From assembly GCA_964648665.1 (NCBI GenBank), contig CAZYOA010000007.1, positions 4,943 to 68,942 on the forward strand: a DNA stretch of 64,000 nucleotides. The letters are read 5' to 3'. This document shows, one piece after another, positions 16,825 to 39,326 of the stretch. Made by a program: the position numbers and the translations under genes. This stretch comes from an uncultured Planctomycetales bacterium. GTDB taxonomy: Bacteria; Omnitrophota; Gorgyraeia; Zapsychrales; Aceulaceae. The notes beneath the pieces were generated by a model. The model was not told the DNA's origin, made no database searches, and was given only the letters and a program-made list of their open reading frames with translations. Numbering within the stretch: position 1 is the stretch's first letter; each line of letters begins with the position of its first letter.

Positions 16825-17739
16825 ATGAAAAATAACAGAAATATTATAGTCTTGGGATCGACTGGGTTTATTGGAAGCGTAATTTTCAAGCATCTTCAAG
16901 AGATTTTTAAAAAAGATAATGTTGCGGGGTTTTCGTCTAAGAACTGTAATTTATTTAATTTACCTATTGTCAAAAAGAAGTTGTTGTGTTTAAAGAAGAA
17001 GGATGTCTTGATTATCGCATCGTCGATATCAAGAACATCAGAGAACAGTCTTGATTCGATGCAAAAGAATATTTTAATGGTGGAAAATATTATAAAAGGG
17101 CTTAATCAAGAATTTATTGGGCAGATTATATATTTAAGTAGCGTCGATGTCTATGGTGTTAAGAAAAAGGACAAAGATGATCTGTCTCTTCGAAGAAAAA
17201 CAATGGATGAGAGTAGCTCGTTGTTTATTGATGATTATTATAGTATGGGGAAAATGGTTAGTGAATTCTTGCTTAAAAATCAATCATTGTCCGGTGGATT
17301 TTCTTTATCTGTTTTGCGCCTCCCAGGAGTTTATGGCTTAGGGGATAAACAAAAAAGTTTAGTTGGTTTGTTTTCTAAGAAATTCTTAGATGATGGGTTT
17401 GTTGAGATTAAGGGAACTGGGAAAATTTTGAGAAATTATGTCTATGTTGAAGATATAAGTAAGGTTGTTGAAAAATGCATCAAGAAAAAAACAAAAGGCA
17501 TTTTTAATATTGTTTCGAAGAAAAGCTTATCGATTTTGGCAATTGCCAAAATCTTAAAGAAATTGTTAAATCCAAAAGCAAAAATTAATTTTAAAACTAA
17601 ATCTATTTCATCAGAAAAAAGAGATCGAGATATTCTTTTTAACAATAAGAGGCTAGAGACTGTTTTTGGAAAAACTGTTGTTTTTTCAATGGAATCTGGA
17701 ATTAAAGAATATTCTTTAAATTATAAAAATGAGTGTTAA
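16825..17739 (+). CDS. NAD(P)-dependent sugar epimerase/ketoreductase (RmlD-like)
   Basis: VLGSTGFIGS Rossmann motif and YSMGK catalytic YxxxK. Confidence 0.6.
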   Translation: MKNNRNIIVLGSTGFIGSVIFKHLQEIFKKDNVAGFSSKNCNLFNLPIVKKKLLCLKKKDVLIIASSISRTSENSLDSMQKNILMVENIIKGLNQEFIGQIIYLSSVDVYGVKKKDKDDLSLRRKTMDESSSLFIDDYYSMGKMVSEFLLKNQSLSGGFSLSVLRLPGVYGLGDKQKSLVGLFSKKFLDDGFVEIKGTGKILRNYVYVEDISKVVEKCIKKKTKGIFNIVSKKSLSILAIAKILKKLLNPKAKINFKTKSISSEKRDRDILFNNKRLETVFGKTVVFSMESGIKEYSLNYKNEC

Positions 17740-18937
17740 TCCTTTCGCCTATATGCAGAGAACATGTTGTTCAGTTTGCAACGAAAAGCTTATTCGTTCA
17801 GTGCTTGATTTTCCTGCGCTTCCGGTTTTGACAGGCGTTTTTACTAAGCAAAAACCTGAAACACAAGATCTTGGATTGGATCAAAGTTTTTTCTTTTGTT
17901 TAAAGTGTGGTCATGGGCAGATTTCAACTGTTATCGATCCAAGTTTTCTGTACAATCAAGATTATAGCTTCAAGACATCTTCGAGTAAGACGGCAACGCG
18001 AGAATTAGAAAAATTTGTTAATTTTCTAGAAAAAGTATCTTTAAATCGTATTTTTAATAAAGTTGTTGATATCGGATGCAACGATTTATATTTACTGAAA
18101 CGTCTTAAGAATAAAGCTAAAGGTTTTTGTGGAGTCGATATGATGCAAGGCTTTGAGGATAGCCAAGAAAATAATTCATCAATAAATTTGATTGCAAAAA
18201 AGGCTGAAGATCTTCAGCCAGATGATTTTGAAAATGAATGTCCTGACCTTGTTGTATCTACACATATGCTTGAACATGTTCAAGAACCAAAAGAAGTTCT
18301 TTGTAACTTGATGCGTTGCGCAGATAAAGATGCTTTGTTTATTTTTGAAGTTCCTTGTTTAGAGCAGATGCTTCAAAGCTATCGATTTGATCGTATTTTT
18401 CATCAGCACTTGCAATATTTTTCATTAACATCTTTTAAAAATCTTTTGAGTCTTGCTGGAGCTGAATATATTGATCATTGTTACAATCCTTCTCATTGGG
18501 GATCTATGATGATTGCATTTAAAAAGAAAACAAATTCTTCTGGTGGAGAAGAGATTTGTTCTAATAAAGATTTGTCAGATGAAATAAGATCTCGATATGA
18601 TATTTTTAGAAAAAATATGAATATAATTTCTAAGGAAATACGCCAGCAAGAGAAGGGATCTGTTGTTGGTTATGGTGCGTCTAATATGCTTCCGATTTTG
18701 TTTTATCATCTTGGGCTAAGAGACAATCTTCTTGATTTAGTTTTCGATGATGATATTATGAAAAATGATCTTTATTTCCAAGGGCTTGGGGTGCGTGTTG
18801 AGAATTTAAGTCAACTTGAACGATTGAAGCATAAAGTTGTTGTTGTGACGGCCTTGGATCATATTGATATTATCACAAAAAAGGTTTTAAATTTTTCTGT
18901 AAATAAAGTTATCGTACCATTGCAAGATTTACCTTAA
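17729..18937 (+). CDS. NDP-hexose C-methyltransferase-type enzyme (TylCIII/NovU-like architecture)
   Basis: N-terminal Zn-ribbon-like CCSVCNEK..CLKCGHG, a central class I methyltransferase motif VVDIGCNDLYLL, and an extra C-terminal domain. This is the three-part layout of sugar C-methyltransferases. Confidence 0.55.
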   Translation: MSVNPFAYMQRTCCSVCNEKLIRSVLDFPALPVLTGVFTKQKPETQDLGLDQSFFFCLKCGHGQISTVIDPSFLYNQDYSFKTSSSKTATRELEKFVNFLEKVSLNRIFNKVVDIGCNDLYLLKRLKNKAKGFCGVDMMQGFEDSQENNSSINLIAKKAEDLQPDDFENECPDLVVSTHMLEHVQEPKEVLCNLMRCADKDALFIFEVPCLEQMLQSYRFDRIFHQHLQYFSLTSFKNLLSLAGAEYIDHCYNPSHWGSMMIAFKKKTNSSGGEEICSNKDLSDEIRSRYDIFRKNMNIISKEIRQQEKGSVVGYGASNMLPILFYHLGLRDNLLDLVFDDDIMKNDLYFQGLGVRVENLSQLERLKHKVVVVTALDHIDIITKKVLNFSVNKVIVPLQDLP

Positions 18938-35113: not shown

Positions 35114-35278
35114 ATGATGAAAATTGGAAAAAGAAGTGTTAAAGTTTTCAAGATGAAGAATCGAAAAGGTTATGCTGCGCTTTGTTGCGATCATCTTACG
35201 GAAGGATTGACTCAAAAACAATCTTTAGTGCGTATGGAAAAAGCTTTAGCGCGAACAGATCGAAAAGCAAAGAAATAG
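35114..35278 (+). CDS. small basic hypothetical protein (54 aa)
   Basis: SD GGAAAGGAG lies just upstream of ATG 35114. The longer track ORF (35054) overlaps the Nudix gene. No recognisable motif. Confidence 0.3.
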   Translation: MMKIGKRSVKVFKMKNRKGYAALCCDHLTEGLTQKQSLVRMEKALARTDRKAKK

Positions 35279-35426
35279 ACATTCTAAGCAATGCTCCATA
35301 AAATGTCCAAAATAGTAGTTTTATTGGGATTTTTATATATATGCATGGAAATAAAAGACTTTTTACTCCACCTCAAAGTATTTGATATAAAGCGACTTAG
35401 AGAAAATAAGATTTTATAAAAGAAAG

Positions 35427-35455
35427 GGAACTTTTTGTTCCTTTTCTTTGTCTAA
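35427..35455 (+). promoter_or_regulatory. ECF (RpoE-like) promoter upstream of the sigma factor gene
   Basis: GGAACTT, 17-nt spacer, TCTAA. The TTG used as ORF start in the track (35448) lies inside this element. Confidence 0.6.
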
Positions 35456-35474
35456 TAAAGTAGAGAGGAATATT

Positions 35475-36035
35475 ATGCAAGAAATTGCACAAGATATCTT
35501 GGAAAGATCAGCTGCTGGAGACCTTGCGGCGTTTGAGTGCCTTTATAGGGCTAGCAGTGGGCTTGTTTACAATGTAGCATTCCGTATTGTCGATAGTCAT
35601 CAAGATGCTGAAGAGGTTACTCAAGATGTTTTTGTGAATGTCTATAAGAATTTAAGTAAATTTGAATTTCGCTCATCATTTAAAACATGGATTTATCGCA
35701 TTACAATTAATGCTGCTCTTAATCGATCTAAGAAAATGATTAAAGAGAAAAAGCGAACTGCTGTTTTAAGTGATTATCAAATTGATTCAGTAAGTTTTAA
35801 AGAGCAGAAAGCTAATGATTCAAAGCCTGATGATGAATTGGTTCATCGTCTTTTATCAAGTCTTAATCCGGATCAAAAGGCATGTGTGGTTCTGAGAAAT
35901 ATTGAGGGTTTAAGTTATGAAGAAATCTCTAGATCTTTAAATATAAACATCAATACGGTTCGGTCGCGACTTAAGAGAGCTAGAGAGAAAATGGGAAAGC
36001 TTATTAAGAAAAGAGGTGATCATGATGAATTGTAA
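35475..36035 (+). CDS. ECF-type RNA polymerase sigma-70 factor
   Basis: Region 2 (..VYNVAFRIVDSHQDAEEVTQDVFVNVYKNL..WIYRITINAALN) and region 4 (LRNIEGLSYEEISRSLNININTVRSRLKRAREKM). ATG 35475 is preceded by GAGAGG. Confidence 0.85.
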   Translation: MQEIAQDILERSAAGDLAAFECLYRASSGLVYNVAFRIVDSHQDAEEVTQDVFVNVYKNLSKFEFRSSFKTWIYRITINAALNRSKKMIKEKKRTAVLSDYQIDSVSFKEQKANDSKPDDELVHRLLSSLNPDQKACVVLRNIEGLSYEEISRSLNININTVRSRLKRAREKMGKLIKKRGDHDEL

Positions 36036-36507
36036 GAGTATTCAAGAATTGTTATTAACTGATTATGTCGATGGTGAAATGAGTGATTCTGAGCGTAAGA
36101 TTATTGATGATCATTTAAAGAGTTGTCAAAAGTGTGAAGAGTTTGCGTTGTTAGCGAAAAAGGTCGGGGTTGATTCTTTTTCTGACACTGAAAGAGTTTC
36201 ACCTTCTGAGAATGTTTGGCAGCGTATTAAAATGCAAGTTAGTTCTAGTTCTGAGAAGTGCAATATTTTTAATAATATTTTTTCCTTAGAAAACATAAAG
36301 AATGCTTTTGCTCTGATGCGACCCAGATTAGTCTTGGCGAGCATTTTATTTGTTGTTTTATCAACAACATTATTTATTAAGGTTTCAGAGCAGAATTTGG
36401 CTTTAAAACAGGAAGAACAAGTTGTTGTTTATTTAGCAACGCTAAGTGAGGATGATGATTCTTTTGATGAAGATTTTGAAACAAATATCGAGAAATATTT
36501 TTTGTAA
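36016..36507 (+). CDS. anti-sigma factor (zf-HC2 type, single TM)
   Basis: C..IQELLLTDYVDGEMS..HLKSCQKCEEF zinc-finger anti-sigma motif, one TM helix (LVLASILFVVLSTTLFI), and overlap with the sigma gene. Confidence 0.7.
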   Translation: MIMMNCKSIQELLLTDYVDGEMSDSERKIIDDHLKSCQKCEEFALLAKKVGVDSFSDTERVSPSENVWQRIKMQVSSSSEKCNIFNNIFSLENIKNAFALMRPRLVLASILFVVLSTTLFIKVSEQNLALKQEEQVVVYLATLSEDDDSFDEDFETNIEKYFL

Positions 36508-36513
36508 AATGAA

Positions 36514-36542
36514 GGAACTTTTTAGAAGTTTGTTTTGTCTAA
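36514..36542 (+). promoter_or_regulatory. second ECF (RpoE-like) promoter, upstream of the Spy/CpxP-like gene
   Basis: GGAACTT, 17-nt spacer, TCTAA, with the same spacing and extended GGAACTTTTT...TTTGTCTAA context as 35427-35455. The track start TTG 36535 lies inside it. Confidence 0.6.
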
Positions 36543-36564
36543 GATAGTGAAAGGAGGAAAGATT

Positions 36565-37101
36565 ATGAGAAATAAAAAGTTAATGTTTTTAGCGGTTGTT
36601 GTTATGATTTTTGCTTGGACTAGCATTGCTCAGGCAAGAGGACATGATCGCGGGTATGGAGATGGTCCAAACATAGAGGGGCGGGGACCAGGCGAGGAAG
36701 AGATTCAGAAGATGCACAAAGGACTTGATATCACAGAGGAACAAGCTGTGCAGCTTAAAGCGAATCGGGAACAACAGAAAGGAAGGATGAAAAACCTTAA
36801 AGAGCGGGTAAAGGAAAAACGTCAAGCTCTTAAAGAGGTGCTAGAAAAAGAAGGCGTAACGGAAGTTTCTGTTGAAGCGTCAGCAACAGCTTTAAAAGAT
36901 GTGCAGGCTAGCTTGGTTGATGAGAAAATAAGAAGTGTTTTGTCGGTAAAATCGATTTTAACACCAGAGCAATATGAGAAGTTTAACGAAAAGATGGGAA
37001 AAAGGCGTCCGCGTAAAGAAAAAGAGGAAAAAAAGCAAGGGCGAAGATCTGATCGTGAGGATGAGGGCGAGGATCGAGGGCCCCATCGAGATCATTGGTA
37101 A
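36565..37101 (+). CDS. periplasmic Spy/CpxP-family (LTXXQ) protein
   Basis: Signal peptide (LMFLAVVVMIFAWTSIAQA), LTXXQ-type motifs (DITEEQ, LTPEQYEKF), a helical charged body, and SD AAAGGAGG before ATG 36565. Confidence 0.65.
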   Translation: MRNKKLMFLAVVVMIFAWTSIAQARGHDRGYGDGPNIEGRGPGEEEIQKMHKGLDITEEQAVQLKANREQQKGRMKNLKERVKEKRQALKEVLEKEGVTEVSVEASATALKDVQASLVDEKIRSVLSVKSILTPEQYEKFNEKMGKRRPRKEKEEKKQGRRSDREDEGEDRGPHRDHW

Positions 37102-37124
37102 GCTTTTGTAGTGGTTGGAAAGAG

Positions 37125-37158
37125 AAAGAGCTCTGTTTATTAAAACAAAGCTCTTTTT
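37125..37158. terminator. bidirectional hairpin terminator between convergent genes
   Basis: 14-bp stem AAAGAGCTCTGTTT / AAACAAAGCTCTTT (1 mismatch) with loop ATTA, an A-run on the left and a T-run on the right. Confidence 0.6.
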
Positions 37159-37168
37159 AGTTTGGTAT

Positions 37169-37734: not shown

Positions 37735-37763
37735 TTGACAGCAGAAGTGTTTAATCGTACTAT
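37735..37763 (+). promoter_or_regulatory. sigma70-type promoter of the Cys-rich peptide/permease/arsC unit
   Basis: TTGACA (37735-37740), 17-nt spacer, TACTAT (37758-37763). The track ORF start (TTG 37735) is actually the -35 box. Confidence 0.5.
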
Positions 37764-37800
37764 CAATAAAAATAAGTTTATCTATTTTAAGGAGGAAATT

Positions 37801-37950
37801 ATGGGATGTTGTGATCCGAAAAAGGAAAATTTTATAGTAAAATGGTTTAAAGATTTATTTGATAAAGTTGATCAAAAGTTAGAAAAAGAAAGCCAAGAAA
37901 AATCTTGTTGTTGCGATAAGGATGAGGATGATCAGAAATGTTGCAGTTAG
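37801..37950 (+). CDS. 49-aa cysteine-cluster protein
   Basis: SD GGAGGA is 5 nt before ATG 37801. Sequence MGCCDPKKENFIVKWFKDLFDKVDQKLEKESQEKSCCCDKDEDDQKCCS has 7 Cys, all in vicinal runs. It overlaps the permease start by 13 nt. Confidence 0.5.
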   Translation: MGCCDPKKENFIVKWFKDLFDKVDQKLEKESQEKSCCCDKDEDDQKCCS

Positions 37951-38903
37951 CAGTTGATTGGCTTACTTATTCGTTGATAAATCTTGATCCTGCATCGCAT
38001 TGGGCAAAAGCGTTGAATTTCTTTATTTATGATACTGTTAAAATTATGCTTTTGTTATTTTTTGTTATTGCGATCTTAGGATTCTTTCGTAGTTTTATCG
38101 ATGAGAACCGAATTAAAGCATGGCTTGTTGGCAAAAAGATTTTTGCTAACTTCTTTGCAGCAAGCTTCGGCGCGCTAACACCTTTTTGTTCGTGCTCTTC
38201 AATTCCCATCTTTTTAAGTTTTGTTAAGCTTGGAGTTCCTTTGGGGGTGATGTTTTCTTTTTTAATTACATCTCCCTTGATTAATGAATATTTAGTTGTT
38301 TTGATGTTGGGATTTTTTGGTTGGAAAATTACAGCGATGTATATTGCCAGCGGAATGTTTGTTGGTATTTTTGTTGGTTTAATTCTTGGCAAAATGAATT
38401 TAGAGAGATATTTGGTTAAAGATCTGATTGATAATGAAAATAAATCTTCAAATGCTGTGGAGTTTCGTTCATTAAAGCAAAGAGTTTTATTTGGTGTTAA
38501 TGAAGCTAAGTCTATTTTAAAGAAATTATGGATTTGGATTATTGTTGGTGTTGGTGTTGGCGCTATCATCCATAATTATATCCCAAAAGAAATGATTGAT
38601 TCCGTGTTGAATAAGACAGGAATATTTTCTGTTCCTATAGCTACGCTTTTAGGTGTTCCGATGTATGGAAGTTGTGCAGCGATTGTGCCGATTGCTGTTG
38701 CGCTTTTTAGAAAAGGCGTTCCTCTAGGAACAGCGCTTGCGTTTATGATGGCAACAAGTGCTTTAAGTCTTCCTGAAGCTGTTATTTTAAGACGAGCTAT
38801 GCGCCTTCAACTTATTGCAATATTTTTTGGAATTACAACGCTGGGGATTATTTTTACTGGTTATCTATTTAATTTCTTGCAAAACCTTTTAATCAACTCC
38901 TAA
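37938..38903 (+). CDS. DUF318/YraQ/ArsP-type permease
   Basis: About 8 TM helices and the family-typical TPFCSCSSIP motif. Confidence 0.7.
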   Translation: MLQLAVDWLTYSLINLDPASHWAKALNFFIYDTVKIMLLLFFVIAILGFFRSFIDENRIKAWLVGKKIFANFFAASFGALTPFCSCSSIPIFLSFVKLGVPLGVMFSFLITSPLINEYLVVLMLGFFGWKITAMYIASGMFVGIFVGLILGKMNLERYLVKDLIDNENKSSNAVEFRSLKQRVLFGVNEAKSILKKLWIWIIVGVGVGAIIHNYIPKEMIDSVLNKTGIFSVPIATLLGVPMYGSCAAIVPIAVALFRKGVPLGTALAFMMATSALSLPEAVILRRAMRLQLIAIFFGITTLGIIFTGYLFNFLQNLLINS

Positions 38904-38909
38904 TGTTTA

Positions 38910-39326
38910 ATGAAAGAAAAAGTTTTATTTGTTTGTATTCATAATTCTGCAAGAAGTCAAATGGCCGAAGAAATTTTAAGGCAAATGGCACATGATCGCT
39001 TTGAAGTTGAAAGCGCAGGCATCGAGCCTGGTGAAATTAATCCGTTGGTTGTGCAAGTTCTAAAAGAGTTCTGCATCGATATTTCAAATAAAAAAACACA
39101 ATTCGTATCCAGTCTTCTTGAAAATAAAAGAATATATAATTATGTGATTACAGTTTGTGATGAAGCGTCAGCTGAGAAATGTCCTGGTTTTCCATCAGAT
39201 GCTATTCGAATTCATTGGAGTTTTGAAGACCCGTCAAAATTGCAGGGATCGGATCAAGAAAAAATAAAGAAAATTCGTATGATTCACAATCAAATTTACG
39301 ATAGAATTAAAGAGTGGCTTGTTTAA
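38910..39326 (+). CDS. arsC: arsenate reductase, LMW-PTPase/thioredoxin-coupled type
   Basis: P-loop CIHNSARSQMAE (CX5R) plus the downstream Cys pair in VCDEASAEKCPGF. Confidence 0.8.
   Translation: MKEKVLFVCIHNSARSQMAEEILRQMAHDRFEVESAGIEPGEINPLVVQVLKEFCIDISNKKTQFVSSLLENKRIYNYVITVCDEASAEKCPGFPSDAIRIHWSFEDPSKLQGSDQEKIKKIRMIHNQIYDRIKEWLV

What the first reader, a model, noticed from the sequence alone, without database searches (positions are those of the whole stretch)
35427..36542. Two near-identical RpoE-type promoters (GGAACTT-N17-TCTAA) define a mini-regulon: sigma/anti-sigma and a Spy/CpxP-like chaperone
**Observation**
- The first site is at 35427-35455: GGAACTTTTTGTTCCTTTTCTTTGTCTAA.
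- The second site is at 36514-36542: GGAACTTTTTAGAAGTTTGTTTTGTCTAA.
- They share the -35 element, the 17-nt spacing and the -10 element.
- Each lies about 20 nt upstream of a strong SD and ATG: the ECF sigma gene at 35475 and the LTXXQ chaperone gene at 36565.
- The motif matches the established RpoE-like ECF consensus (GGAACTT / TCnAA).
- In both cases the ORF track's TTG 'start' is part of the TTTGTCTAA -10 region, so the track ORFs are over-extended.

**Inference**
- This gives a directly testable, sequence-defined envelope-stress regulon.
- It also gives a search motif for the rest of the genome.
Basis: partly seen in the sequence, partly recalled or inferred. Interest (0 to 1): 0.55.

Follow-up and report, generated by a model that had tools for sequence, protein, structure and literature searches.

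The report
Self-activating stress sigma factor promoters
Two matching promoter sites in an uncultivated Omnitrophota bacterium almost certainly let a stress sigma factor switch on its own operon and a neighbouring periplasmic Spy-like protein; the reading is sound, but this kind of module has already been catalogued.

Summary
GGAACTT-N17-TCTAA occurs exactly twice in 64 kb, at 35427-35455 and 36514-36542, against 0.09 expected.

- **Position.** The sites lie 19 and 22 nt before the ATGs of an ECF sigma gene and an LTXXQ/PF13801 gene. A zinc-finger, one-helix anti-sigma gene sits between them.
- **Conservation.** In 46 orthologous loci, mostly Omnitrophota, the same motif ([G/A]GAACTTT-N13-TTGTCTAA) gives 65 hits against 0.25 expected.
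  - 27 loci carry it directly upstream of sigma.
  - 11 carry it upstream of a preceding gene.
  - 21 of 43 carry a second copy before the LTXXQ gene.
- **Close relatives.** The -35 and -10 blocks are invariant while the spacer has diverged.

It is not new in kind. The published ECF classification describes groups ECF281 and ECF111 with this gene order and a GTCTAA -10; ECF281's predicted motif is GGAACTT-Xn-GTCTAA. Neither group has a studied member.

The increments here are phylum-wide conservation, a dedicated internal promoter, DUF6515 as a further target, and an undescribed conserved anti-sigma C-terminus (GTxIEEYFL).

Interest is low to moderate.

The parts
35427..35455 (+). P1: ECF-type promoter. 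The -35 is GGAACTTT (35427-35434) and the -10 is TTGTCTAA (35448-35455). The predicted start is about 35460-35462.
   Evidence: - Exact match; 32.1 bits.
- Blocks invariant in L081, L083 and L084 while the spacer diverges.
- The same motif lies directly upstream of 27 of 46 sigma orthologues.
- The start position is inferred from the 5/6-nt discriminator of E. coli sigma-E promoters (PMC1312014).
35475..36035 (+). ECF (group IV) sigma factor, 186 aa
   Evidence: - Pfam Sigma70_r2 and Sigma70_r4_2.
- TIGR02937 100 bits, above its cut-off of 42.9; no equivalog cut-off is reached.
- Nearest solved structures are M. tuberculosis SigE, AlgU and E. coli RpoE.
- 4655 homologues; the closest named is Ca. 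Aceula lacicola at 80% identity.
36025..36507 (+). Anti-sigma factor, 160 aa.
- N-terminal zinc-binding anti-sigma domain (Cys3, H-x3-C-x2-C).
- One transmembrane helix (about residues 100-120).
- A 41-aa acidic external tail ending in NIEKYFL.
- Overlaps the sigma stop codon by 11 nt.
   Evidence: - Pfam zf-HC2.
- HxxxCxxC in 41 of 42 orthologues and in 145 of 146 full-length cluster representatives.
- The start at ATG 36025 fits the orthologues' MNC... N-termini.
- The transmembrane helix was read by eye in the sequence.
36478..36504 (+). Codons for the conserved extreme C-terminus of the anti-sigma factor. The window has FETNIEKYFL; the family consensus is (F/Y/L)GTxIE(E/K/Q)YFL-COOH.
   Evidence: - Motif present in 31 of 42 orthologues.
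- Present in 129 of 146 full-length representatives of 50%-identity clusters.
- No mention found in the searchable literature.
36514..36542 (+). P2: a second ECF-type promoter, beginning 6 nt after the anti-sigma stop codon. The -35 is GGAACTTT and the -10 is TTGTCTAA. The predicted start is about 36547-36549.
   Evidence: - Exact match; 28.8 bits.
- Blocks invariant and spacer fully diverged in L081, L083 and L084.
- An equivalent site precedes the +2 gene in 21 of 43 orthologous loci.
36565..37101 (+). Secreted LTXXQ / PF13801 protein, 178 aa. It belongs to the Spy/CpxP/ZraP/CnrX superfamily, and its signal peptide ends ...SIAQA.
   Evidence: - Pfam LTXXQ 39.8 bits and Metal_resist 31.9 bits, both above their cut-offs.
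- All 22 aligned targets hit PF13801 and 20 hit PF07813.
- A profile against the PDB hits Spy at 4.5e-9, then ZraP and CpxP.
- The AF2 core is a helical hairpin (pLDDT 85-91 for residues 44-146). The top fold matches are CnrXs, ZraP, Spy and CpxP, all weak.
37123..37158 (+). Terminator-like hairpin with a U-run that closes the three-gene unit. It lies between convergent genes.
   Evidence: RNA fold of 37102-37168 gives -16.6 kcal/mol and z = -2.2. It was not picked up by the consensus terminator scan, so the evidence is moderate.
35300..35333 (+). Conserved hairpin plus U/A-run after the small upstream ORF. It is a possible terminator that insulates P1 from upstream transcription.
   Evidence: It is conserved in all four close relatives and is predicted as a stem by RNAalifold, but it has almost no covariation. 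The assignment is tentative.

Best explanation
**What it is.** The region is a self-contained ECF sigma module of an Omnitrophota bacterium. Three co-directional genes (sigma, membrane ZAS anti-sigma, secreted LTXXQ/PF13801 protein) are driven by two promoters that the encoded sigma itself recognises.

**How it most likely works.**
- At rest, the anti-sigma's zinc-binding cytoplasmic domain holds the sigma at the membrane.
- A signal from outside the cytoplasm, or a thiol/metal signal, inactivates or degrades the anti-sigma.
- Free sigma then binds core RNA polymerase and initiates at P1 and at P2.
  - P1 gives positive autoregulation. The co-made anti-sigma resets the system.
  - P2 starts 6 nt after the anti-sigma stop codon and adds extra transcription of the LTXXQ gene alone.
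- No terminator was detected between the anti-sigma gene and P2. The LTXXQ gene should therefore receive read-through from P1 plus P2, and be the most strongly induced product.
- The LTXXQ protein is exported and most likely acts as a Spy-like, ATP-independent holdase or stress adaptor in the periplasm.

**Shown versus inferred.**
- Shown: the sequences, the gene families, the statistical excess, and conservation of motif, spacing and position across a phylum.
- Inferred: that this sigma (not another) reads the sites, the start sites, the inducing signal, and the biochemical role of the LTXXQ protein.
For: - **Window statistics.**
  - Two exact sites against 0.09 expected.
  - 32.1 and 28.8 bits against a maximum of 22.2 in 200 shuffles.
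- **Orthologous loci.**
  - 65 hits of at least 18 bits in 346 kb against 0.25 expected; 63 are on the sigma strand.
  - 21 of the 65 were training sites, so 44 are independent.
  - Fixed spacing in 21 of 23 regex hits.
  - The site is directly upstream of sigma in 27 of 46 loci and upstream of the preceding co-directional gene in 11 of 46.
- **Linkage of the three genes.**
  - A PF13801/LTXXQ gene sits at +2 in 43 of 46 loci with at least 40% sigma identity (two of the three exceptions have under 500 nt of downstream sequence).
  - It sits at +2 in 0 of 32 loci below 40% identity.
  - 21 of the 43 have their own site.
- **Footprinting** at 72-80% protein identity: -35 and -10 invariant, spacer diverged.
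- **Specificity.**
  - The sigma-4 helix is identical to E. coli sigma-E at the RSRxxRARE stretch seen in the -35 DNA complex 2H27.
  - The E. coli sigma-E consensus is GGAACTTTT / GGTCAAAA with a 15-19 nt spacer (PMC1312014).
- **Independent scan.** An independent metagenome scan with the 18-base core pattern returned sites in front of 14 sigma, 16 LTXXQ and 3 DUF6515 genes out of 82.
- **Published prediction.** The same motif and gene order are predicted for ECF281, and similar ones for ECF111.
Against: - There are no transcript data of any kind. The organism is uncultivated.
- About half of the orthologous loci lack a detectable P2 (22 of 43), so the internal promoter is dispensable in many lineages.
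- 8 of 46 loci lack a strong site upstream of sigma.
- The motif is shared with at least one other ECF clade (29-36% identical sigmas next to VIT/vWA genes). Cross-recognition by a paralogue elsewhere in the genome cannot be excluded from a 64-kb window.
- The predicted leaders are very short (about 13-17 nt).
- The weight matrix was trained on regex-selected sites, so its core columns are inflated. The P2 sites and the shuffle controls do not depend on that.
Confidence: 0.85

Rival explanations
1. The LTXXQ/PF13801 protein is not only an output. It is part of the sensing or feedback device: a periplasmic partner of the anti-sigma factor, acting as CpxP does on CpxA or CnrX on CnrY. It would bind the conserved external tail and be titrated away by misfolded proteins or metals.
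For: - The +2 gene is linked to this sigma/anti-sigma pair in 43 of 46 orthologous loci, and in none of the more distant loci.
- The anti-sigma's short external tail ends in a conserved decapeptide (129 of 146 representatives), which implies a specific partner or protease.
- The top fold matches of the model are CnrXs, the sensor partner of an ECF anti-sigma.
- CpxP is in the same Pfam family.
- The authors of the ECF classification stress that neighbours can be regulators or targets.
Against: - A dedicated sigma-dependent promoter in front of the gene marks it as a target first of all.
- By sequence the family is nearer to Spy than to CpxP, and CnrX is not hit at all.
- The family alignment has no conserved His, Met or Cys that could form a CnrX-like metal site; only two Gln are invariant.
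- Loci whose anti-sigma lacks the C-terminal motif (for example L016, L019, L030, L034) still keep the LTXXQ gene.
- Fold E-values are weak (0.09-0.4).
Confidence: 0.22
2. The module responds to heavy metals or thiol-reactive compounds rather than to envelope protein misfolding. The ZAS domain or a metal-binding periplasmic protein would act as the sensor.
For: - All 22 +2 proteins hit PF13801, 'Heavy-metal resistance'.
- The published summaries for ECF281 and ECF111 propose heavy-metal and/or envelope stress.
- The HxxxCxxC motif plus an N-terminal Cys is almost invariant.
- The neighbouring genes on the far side are a Cys-rich peptide, an ArsP_1 permease and an LMWPc phosphatase, assigned by synteny with L083.
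Against: - The LTXXQ family has no conserved metal ligands.
- The neighbouring permease cluster carries no copy of the motif.
- The Pfam name reflects ZraP/CnrX relatives, not a tested function.
- Many ZAS domains bind zinc structurally without sensing.
Confidence: 0.3
3. The two sites are read by a different ECF sigma encoded elsewhere in the genome, and the local sigma has another specificity.
For: The same 18-base core pattern occurs beside a second, distantly related ECF clade in metagenome loci. ECF groups derived from the old ECF20 share similar motifs.
Against: - The motif travels with this sigma orthologue across at least 38 of 46 loci, in the classical autoregulatory position.
- The sigma-4 recognition helix matches that of a sigma known to read GGAACTT.
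- No other clear ECF sigma gene is present in the window; the only other tblastn hits have E-values of 0.079 and 0.31.
Confidence: 0.04
4. The matches are chance products of an AT-rich genome (33% G+C), or a local duplication with no function.
For: - The spacers are T-rich, as is the genome.
- The loose pattern GGAAC-N17-22-TCTAA alone is not significant.
Against: - 0 of 100 shuffles give two matches to the full pattern, and no shuffle reaches the observed scores.
- The spacers of P1 and P2 differ, so this is not a duplication.
- Conservation holds across genomes of 40-60% G+C.
Confidence: 0.01

Closest known systems
ECF281, especially subgroup ECF281s2, of the ECF classification 2.0 (Casas-Pastor et al. 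2021, PMC7826278 and bioRxiv supplements)
   Same: - A one-helix zinc-finger anti-sigma at +1.
- A heavy-metal-resistance (PF13801) protein at +2.
- A predicted autoregulatory motif GGAACTT-Xn-GTCTAA. All three are matched here.
- BLASTP to two ECF281 reference sigmas gives 98-100 bits, against 87 for E. coli RpoE.
   Different: - The listed taxa are Firmicutes, Actinobacteria, Deinococcus and Proteobacteria, not Omnitrophota.
- Identity to the references is only 30-33%.
- Formal HMM assignment could not be run.
- The published description has no second promoter before the +2 gene and no studied member.
ECF111 of the same classification
   Same: - A one-helix anti-sigma at +1.
- An LTXXQ or heavy-metal-resistance protein at +2.
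- A -10 of GTCTAAA.
[quoted passage not shown]
- Candidatus Omnitrophica ECFs are listed under ECF111 and ECF25.
   Different: - Its predicted -35 is TTGAACCT, not GGAACTTT.
- Its anti-sigma is listed as 'CAS', not ZAS.
- No studied member.
E. coli sigma-E (RpoE)/RseA envelope-stress system
   Same: - Near-identical promoter logic: GGAACTTTT / GGTCAAAA, a 15-19 nt spacer and a 5-6 nt discriminator.
- An identical sigma-4 DNA-reading stretch.
- Autoregulation, a co-transcribed membrane anti-sigma, and periplasmic folding factors as targets (the last point is established knowledge).
   Different: - The sigma is not an orthologue (TIGR02939 102 bits against a cut-off of 236).
- The anti-sigma is ZAS-type with a 41-aa tail, not RseA with RseB.
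- The preferred spacer is 17 nt rather than 16.
- In E. coli, spy and cpxP are under Bae/Cpx two-component control, not sigma-E (my own knowledge).
CnrYXH of Cupriavidus metallidurans (ECF291)
   Same: An ECF sigma works together with a small membrane anti-sigma and a periplasmic four-helix protein of the PF13801 superfamily. CnrXs is the top fold match of the model.
   Different: - CnrY is not ZAS and lies upstream (position -2).
- The CnrX metal ligands (His/Glu/Met, from memory) have no conserved counterparts here.
- CnrH is a weaker sequence match (1.4e-8).
- No efflux operon is attached.
Spy / CpxP / ZraP periplasmic stress proteins
   Same: - Pfam LTXXQ, with two (L/I)TxxQ motifs and a signal peptide.
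- A helical hairpin core.
- The family profile hits Spy (4.5e-9), ZraP and CpxP structures.
   Different: - The score is far below the Spy and CpxP equivalog cut-offs (41 against 174, and 23 against 238).
- Control is by an ECF sigma rather than by two-component systems.
- The long charged C-terminal tail is predicted to be disordered.

Membership tests
ECF (group IV) sigma-70 family | Only the sigma-2 and sigma-4 domains, in a protein of about 180-200 aa | tested here: met
   Pfam Sigma70_r2 (residues 23-86) and Sigma70_r4_2 (121-173) in 186 aa. TIGR02937 scores 100 bits against a cut-off of 42.9.
ECF (group IV) sigma-70 family | A cognate anti-sigma factor encoded next to the sigma and co-transcribed with it | tested here: met
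   A zf-HC2 protein overlaps the sigma stop codon by 11 nt. HxxxCxxC is conserved in 41 of 42 orthologues. Physical binding was not tested.
ECF (group IV) sigma-70 family | An autoregulatory promoter with AAC in the -35 and a GTC/CGT-type -10 | tested here: met
   The sequence and its conservation are met. Promoter activity itself is not testable with these tools.
RpoE (ECF02) orthologue with RseA/RseB | Equivalog-level similarity to RpoE | tested here: not met
   TIGR02939 scores 102.1 bits against a cut-off of 236.15.
RpoE (ECF02) orthologue with RseA/RseB | An RseA-type anti-sigma and RseB downstream | tested here: not met
   The downstream genes are zf-HC2 and LTXXQ/PF13801.
ECF281 (classification 2.0) | A one-helix zinc-finger anti-sigma at +1 | tested here: met
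   the definition is.
ECF281 (classification 2.0) | A heavy-metal-resistance (PF13801) protein at +2 (subgroup s2) | tested here: met
   PF13801 scores 31.9 bits against a cut-off of 29.2. It is present in 43 of 46 orthologous loci.
ECF281 (classification 2.0) | The predicted target motif GGAACTT-Xn-GTCTAA | tested here: met
   Both window sites contain GGAACTT...GTCTAA.
ECF281 (classification 2.0) | Assignment by the group's HMM (ECF Hub) | not testable with these tools
   Only a BLASTP comparison to two reference members was possible. It gave 98-100 bits and 30-33% identity, slightly above RpoE at 87 bits. That is not decisive.
ECF111 (classification 2.0) | A one-helix anti-sigma at +1 and an LTXXQ or heavy-metal-resistance protein at +2 | tested here: met
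   the definition is. Omnitrophica are listed under ECF111.
ECF111 (classification 2.0) | The predicted motif TTGAACCT-Xn-GTCTAAA | tested here: inconclusive
   The -10 GTCTAA(T/G) agrees. The -35 here is GGAACTTT and shares only GAAC with TTGAACCT.
Spy/CpxP (LTXXQ, PF07813) family | A Pfam match above the gathering score, two LTXXQ-type motifs and a signal peptide | tested here: met
   - PF07813 scores 39.8 bits against a cut-off of 24.3.
- The motifs are DITEEQ and ILTPEQ (family consensus LGLTPEQ / ILTPEQF).
- The N-terminal signal peptide was read by eye.
Spy/CpxP (LTXXQ, PF07813) family | Equivalog-level similarity to Spy or CpxP | tested here: not met
   NF007769 (Spy) scores 41.1 bits against a cut-off of 174. 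NF009392 (CpxP) scores 22.7 against 238.
Spy/CpxP (LTXXQ, PF07813) family | ATP-independent holdase activity | not testable with these tools
   This needs a biochemical assay.
CnrX-type periplasmic metal sensor | Conserved metal-binding residues (His/Glu/His/Met in CnrX; list from memory) | tested here: not met
   The family alignment A4 has no conserved His, Met or Cys. CnrX is absent from the sequence hits, although the fold resemblance is top-ranked and weak.

The most novel reading that the evidence does not exclude
The conserved anti-sigma C-terminus (F/Y)GTxIE(E/K)YFL-COOH may be the switch of the system.

- The Spy-like LTXXQ protein, or a PDZ-type protease, would dock on this hydrophobic tail.
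- When unfolded periplasmic proteins titrate the LTXXQ protein away, the exposed tail would make the short-tailed anti-sigma a substrate for intramembrane or C-terminal proteolysis.
- The sigma is then released and more LTXXQ protein is made from P2.

This would be a chaperone-titration sensor like Cpx/CpxP, wired to an ECF sigma instead of a histidine kinase, and widespread in Omnitrophota and allied uncultivated phyla.
Probability: 0.15. Interest if true: 0.55.

Novelty: new member of a known kind. Interest (0 to 1): 0.27.

Why it matters
**Practical value**
- It corrects two start codons. Public gene calls also over-extend them: L081 starts the LTXXQ gene at a TTG inside the promoter spacer.
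- It gives a well-supported promoter model for a phylum with no cultured representatives and no mapped promoters.
- It offers a compact sigma, anti-sigma and promoter set that could be tested directly in a heterologous host, as was done for other orthogonal ECF switches.

**Biological value**
- The ECF111/ECF281-type module, so far only predicted and with no studied member, is near-universal among the sampled Omnitrophota.
- Its neighbouring PF13801 protein is a direct target with its own promoter in about half the lineages.
- Its anti-sigma carries an undescribed, strongly conserved C-terminal peptide that points to where the signal enters.

None of this changes current understanding of ECF signalling.

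Tried and rejected
1. **HtrA/DegP as a regulon member.** Four metagenome hits (L112, L130, L139, L143) seemed to put the motif before an HtrA gene. The sequence shows the motif inside the 3' part of a conserved upstream ORF (...CxxC...ELF...CLS...), 131-144 nt before htrA. These are coding-sequence coincidences, not promoters.
2. **A third window site at 18652** (16.6 bits). It has GGGATC instead of GGAAC and lies inside ORF 17729-18937. Rejected.
3. **Other recurrent targets in the window.** tblastn found no homologue of DUF6515, of the 129-aa 'DWDKAGKALAVIEG' protein, of VIT/vWA, or of the 270-290-aa family.
4. **A sigma-70-like match** TTGTCT-17-TATTAT at 35448-35476. Its -10 overlaps the ATG, so it cannot give a productive transcript.
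5. **The palindrome** GGAACAAAAAGTTCC within P1 (flagged as terminator-like on the minus strand). It is not conserved in close relatives, so it is treated as chance.
6. **Rfam** at gathering thresholds over the whole window gave no hit. RNAalifold on the P1 upstream region gave a weak structure without covariation.
The 5-sequence alignment gave only a moderate model (pLDDT 68), and fold matches could not separate Spy from CnrX.
8. **Word-index searches** with the LTXXQ and anti-sigma proteins returned only 5 and 3 relatives. The full HMMER search was needed for the anti-sigma.
9. **Formal ECF-group assignment** was not possible. BLASTP to two ECF281 references was not decisive.
Full report
**1. 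The observation**

Both 29-nt strings are present at the stated coordinates. GGAACTT-N15-19-TCTAA matches nowhere else on either strand of the 64-kb window. Dinucleotide-preserving shuffles give 0.09 matches on average, and none of 100 gives two. A looser pattern (GGAAC-N17-22-TCTAA) is not significant by itself. The weight therefore lies in the longer identical blocks, GGAACTTTTT and TTTGTCTAA, and in what follows.

The -10 blocks end 19 and 22 nt before ATG 35475 and ATG 36565, each preceded by a purine-rich Shine-Dalgarno sequence. The mechanical ORF list begins both ORFs at TTG codons (35448, 36535) inside TTTGTCTAA. Sigma orthologues are 186 aa long with an invariant Met1, and the LTXXQ relatives start with their signal peptides.

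**2. The genes**

| Gene | Coordinates | Evidence |
|---|---|---|
| ECF sigma, 186 aa | 35475-36035 | Sigma70_r2 plus r4_2. Passes only the ECF superfamily cut-off; no equivalog. RpoE model 102 bits against 236. |
| Anti-sigma, 160 aa | 36025-36507 | zf-HC2 with Cys3 and H-x3-C-x2-C, one transmembrane helix, a 41-residue acidic external tail. Overlaps the sigma stop codon by 11 nt. |
| Secreted protein, 178 aa | 36565-37101 | Hits both LTXXQ (PF07813) and Metal_resist (PF13801) above their cut-offs. |

- A hairpin with a U-run at 37123-37158 closes the unit before a convergent gene.
- Only 6 nt separate the anti-sigma stop codon from the -35 of the second site, and no terminator was detected there. 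The LTXXQ gene should thus receive read-through from P1 plus its own initiation at P2.
- The organism is an Omnitrophota bacterium. The closest named relative of the sigma is Candidatus Aceula lacicola (80% identity), and nearly all strong hits are labelled Omnitrophota/Omnitrophica. The window has 33% G+C.

**3. Comparative test**

A scan of species-representative genomes with a profile of the sigma returned 80 loci. Of these, 46 carry a sigma at least 40% identical, mostly from Omnitrophota.

- Upstream regions showed the motif by eye.
- A regex found GGAACTT/GAAACTT-N16-GTCTA with the window's spacing in 21 of 23 cases.
- A 37-nt matrix from those 21 sites has extra, unselected conservation: T after GGAACTT, TT before GTCTAA, and a final A.

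Results of scanning with that matrix:

| Sequence scanned | Observed | Control |
|---|---|---|
| Window | 32.1 and 28.8 bits; next hit 16.6 bits, inside an ORF | Best of 200 shuffles: 22.2 bits |
| 46 loci (346 kb) | 65 hits of at least 18 bits, 63 on the sigma strand | 0.25 expected |

Where the sites lie in the 46 loci:

- 27 loci have the site directly upstream of sigma.
- 11 have it upstream of a preceding co-directional gene, which is a DUF6515 secreted protein in 8.
- 8 have only degenerate versions, or no upstream sequence.

The +2 gene:

- A PF13801/LTXXQ gene lies at +2 in 43 of the 46 loci. Two of the three exceptions have too little downstream sequence.
- It is present in 0 of 32 loci whose sigma is below 40% identical.
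- 21 of the 43 have their own site in front of it.
- These second sites were not part of the training set.

In the four closest loci (72-80% sigma identity, fully syntenic), GGAACTTTTT and TGTCTAAG are invariant at both promoters. The 12 nt between them have diverged completely. This is the pattern expected of a two-block promoter.

**4. Specificity**

- The sigma's nearest solved relatives are M. tuberculosis SigE, P. aeruginosa AlgU and E. coli RpoE.
- Its sigma-4 recognition helix (GLSYEEI...TVRSRLKRARE) matches the E. coli sigma-E4 segment crystallised on -35 DNA in 2H27 (GLSYEEI...TVRSRIFRARE).
- E. coli sigma-E promoters have GGAACTTTT and (T/C)GGTCAAAA, a spacer of 15-19 nt between GGAACTT and TCAAA (16 preferred), and a 5-6 nt discriminator (PMC1312014).
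- The window's 17-nt spacer lies in that range. Starts are therefore predicted near 35460-35462 and 36547-36549, giving short leaders that still hold the Shine-Dalgarno sequences. This step is inference.

**5. What is already known**

The ECF classification 2.0 (Casas-Pastor et al. 2021) describes two matching groups.

- **ECF281.** It has a one-helix zinc-finger anti-sigma at +1, a heavy-metal-resistance protein at +2 (subgroup s2) and a predicted target motif GGAACTT-Xn-GTCTAA. It has no studied member.
- **ECF111.** It has a one-helix anti-sigma at +1, an LTXXQ or heavy-metal-resistance protein at +2 and a motif TTGAACCT-Xn-GTCTAAA. [quoted passage not shown]

The same supplement lists Candidatus Omnitrophica ECFs under ECF111 and ECF25. 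The window module meets every contextual feature of ECF281 and most of ECF111. Which HMM it falls under could not be tested. BLASTP to two ECF281 references (98-100 bits) is only slightly better than to RpoE (87 bits). Either way, the kind is known and the motif was already predicted at group level.

**6. The LTXXQ protein**

- A profile of 22 promoter-linked relatives hits Spy (4.5e-9), ZraP and CpxP structures, but not CnrX.
- The AlphaFold model is moderate (pLDDT 68; core residues 44-146 at 85-91) and is a helical hairpin with disordered charged ends.
- Foldseek ranks CnrXs, ZraP, Spy and CpxP together with weak E-values.
- The family alignment has no conserved His, Met or Cys. A CnrX-like metal site is therefore not supported.
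- A Spy-like holdase or a CpxP-like adaptor remains the best guess. Its activity is untested.

**7. An unreported feature**

The anti-sigma's external tail ends in (F/Y/L)GTxIE(E/K/Q)YFL-COOH.

- The motif is present in 31 of 42 locus-derived orthologues.
- It is present in 129 of 146 full-length representatives of 50%-identity clusters found by an exhaustive HMMER search. In that set the ZAS motif is present in 145 of 146.
- No paper in the searchable library mentions it.
- A conserved hydrophobic C-terminus on a 40-residue tail suggests a docking site for a partner or a protease. It is the basis of the 'novel case', which remains speculative.
- Loci that lack the motif still keep the LTXXQ gene. 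This argues mildly against an obligatory tail-LTXXQ pairing.

**8. The wider regulon**

An exact-pattern scan of metagenome contigs (GGAACTTTTT-N12-TGTCTAAG) returned 82 sites.

- 14 precede sigma genes, 16 precede LTXXQ genes and 3 precede DUF6515 genes.
- Recurrent others, at 6-60 nt from the site:
  - VIT plus vWA proteins.
  - An unnamed 270-290-aa secreted family.
  - Glycine-rich small proteins.
  - ExbD, TonB and DUF3300.
- The VIT/vWA and 270-290-aa cases lie beside sigmas only 29-36% identical to this one. The motif therefore serves at least two ECF clades and is not a unique address.
- Four apparent HtrA targets were artefacts of a conserved coding sequence.
- In the window and in 20 kb around each close relative, only P1 and P2 are found.

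**9. Verdict**

The module is a typical autoregulated ECF unit of an already catalogued type. The additions are modest: phylum-wide conservation, a dedicated internal promoter, DUF6515 as an alternative first gene, and the conserved anti-sigma C-terminus.

Confidence that both sites are functional promoters of the adjacent sigma is about 0.85. The inducing signal (misfolding or metal/thiol) is open, and so is the role of the LTXXQ protein as an output or as a feedback component.

Noticed in passing
window 36478-36504 (anti-sigma C-terminus): The extreme C-terminus of the anti-sigma factor, (F/Y/L)GTxIE(E/K/Q)YFL-COOH, is the best-conserved part of its external region. It is present in 129 of 146 cluster representatives. 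No description was found in the searchable literature.
   Followed up: partly
window 35300-35333 and 35362-35395: Two intergenic blocks upstream of P1 are invariant in the close relatives. The first (AAAATGTCC...TGGGATTTT plus a U/A run) looks like a terminator hairpin after the small upstream ORF. The second (TTTTTACTCCACCTCAAAGTATTTG) is unexplained. There is no Rfam hit and no covariation.
   Followed up: partly
window 35114-35278 (+): A 54-aa basic ORF (MMKIGKRSVKVF...CCDHLTEG...) has no Pfam or NCBIfam match. It is called as a gene at the same position in L081-L084.
   Followed up: no
window 37735-39326 (+): Next to the module lie a 71-aa Cys-rich ORF, a 321-aa ArsP_1-type permease and a 138-aa LMWPc phosphatase. 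Names are assigned by synteny and equal lengths with the L083 gene calls. This is a metal(loid)-type cluster, and it carries no copy of the ECF motif.
   Followed up: partly
L081 11049-11591; window 35448 and 36535: Public gene calls for the Aceula relative start the LTXXQ gene at a TTG inside the P2 spacer. This is the same over-extension as in the window's ORF list.
   Followed up: yes
L003, L005, L010, L021, L022, L024, L029, L039, L046 (about 600-900 nt upstream of sigma): In these loci a DUF6515 secreted protein (ending ...GPQGEYYxxHPTVEQLKxLYGK) is inserted between the promoter and the sigma gene. It is thus the first gene of the autoregulated operon. The window has no homologue.
   Followed up: partly
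L088, L110, L137, L141, L144, L151, L152 and others: The same 18-base motif precedes VIT+vWA proteins (about 780 aa) and an unnamed 270-290-aa secreted family. Both lie beside ECF sigmas only 29-36% identical to this one. A second ECF clade therefore shares the promoter motif.
   Followed up: partly
L112, L130, L139, L143: The motif occurs inside the 3' coding part of a conserved ORF upstream of htrA. It is preserved by protein constraints (...ELF...CLS...). This is a false-positive class for pattern searches with this motif.
   Followed up: yes
L093, L102, L123, L135: The motif is followed by a conserved non-coding stretch of about 190 nt before the next gene (TTG start after AGGAGG). It may be a long structured leader or a small RNA under the same sigma type.
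   Followed up: no
L015 (minus strand, 2254) and L026 (5568): A 129-aa secreted protein (S[DH]WDKAGKALAVIEG...) is preceded by the motif in two loci. In one of them it is transcribed divergently from the sigma gene. It has no Pfam family.
   Followed up: no
window 35427-35441: The -35 of P1 and the start of its spacer form a perfect palindrome, GGAACTTTTTGTTCC. The close relatives do not have it, so it is probably chance.
   Followed up: partly
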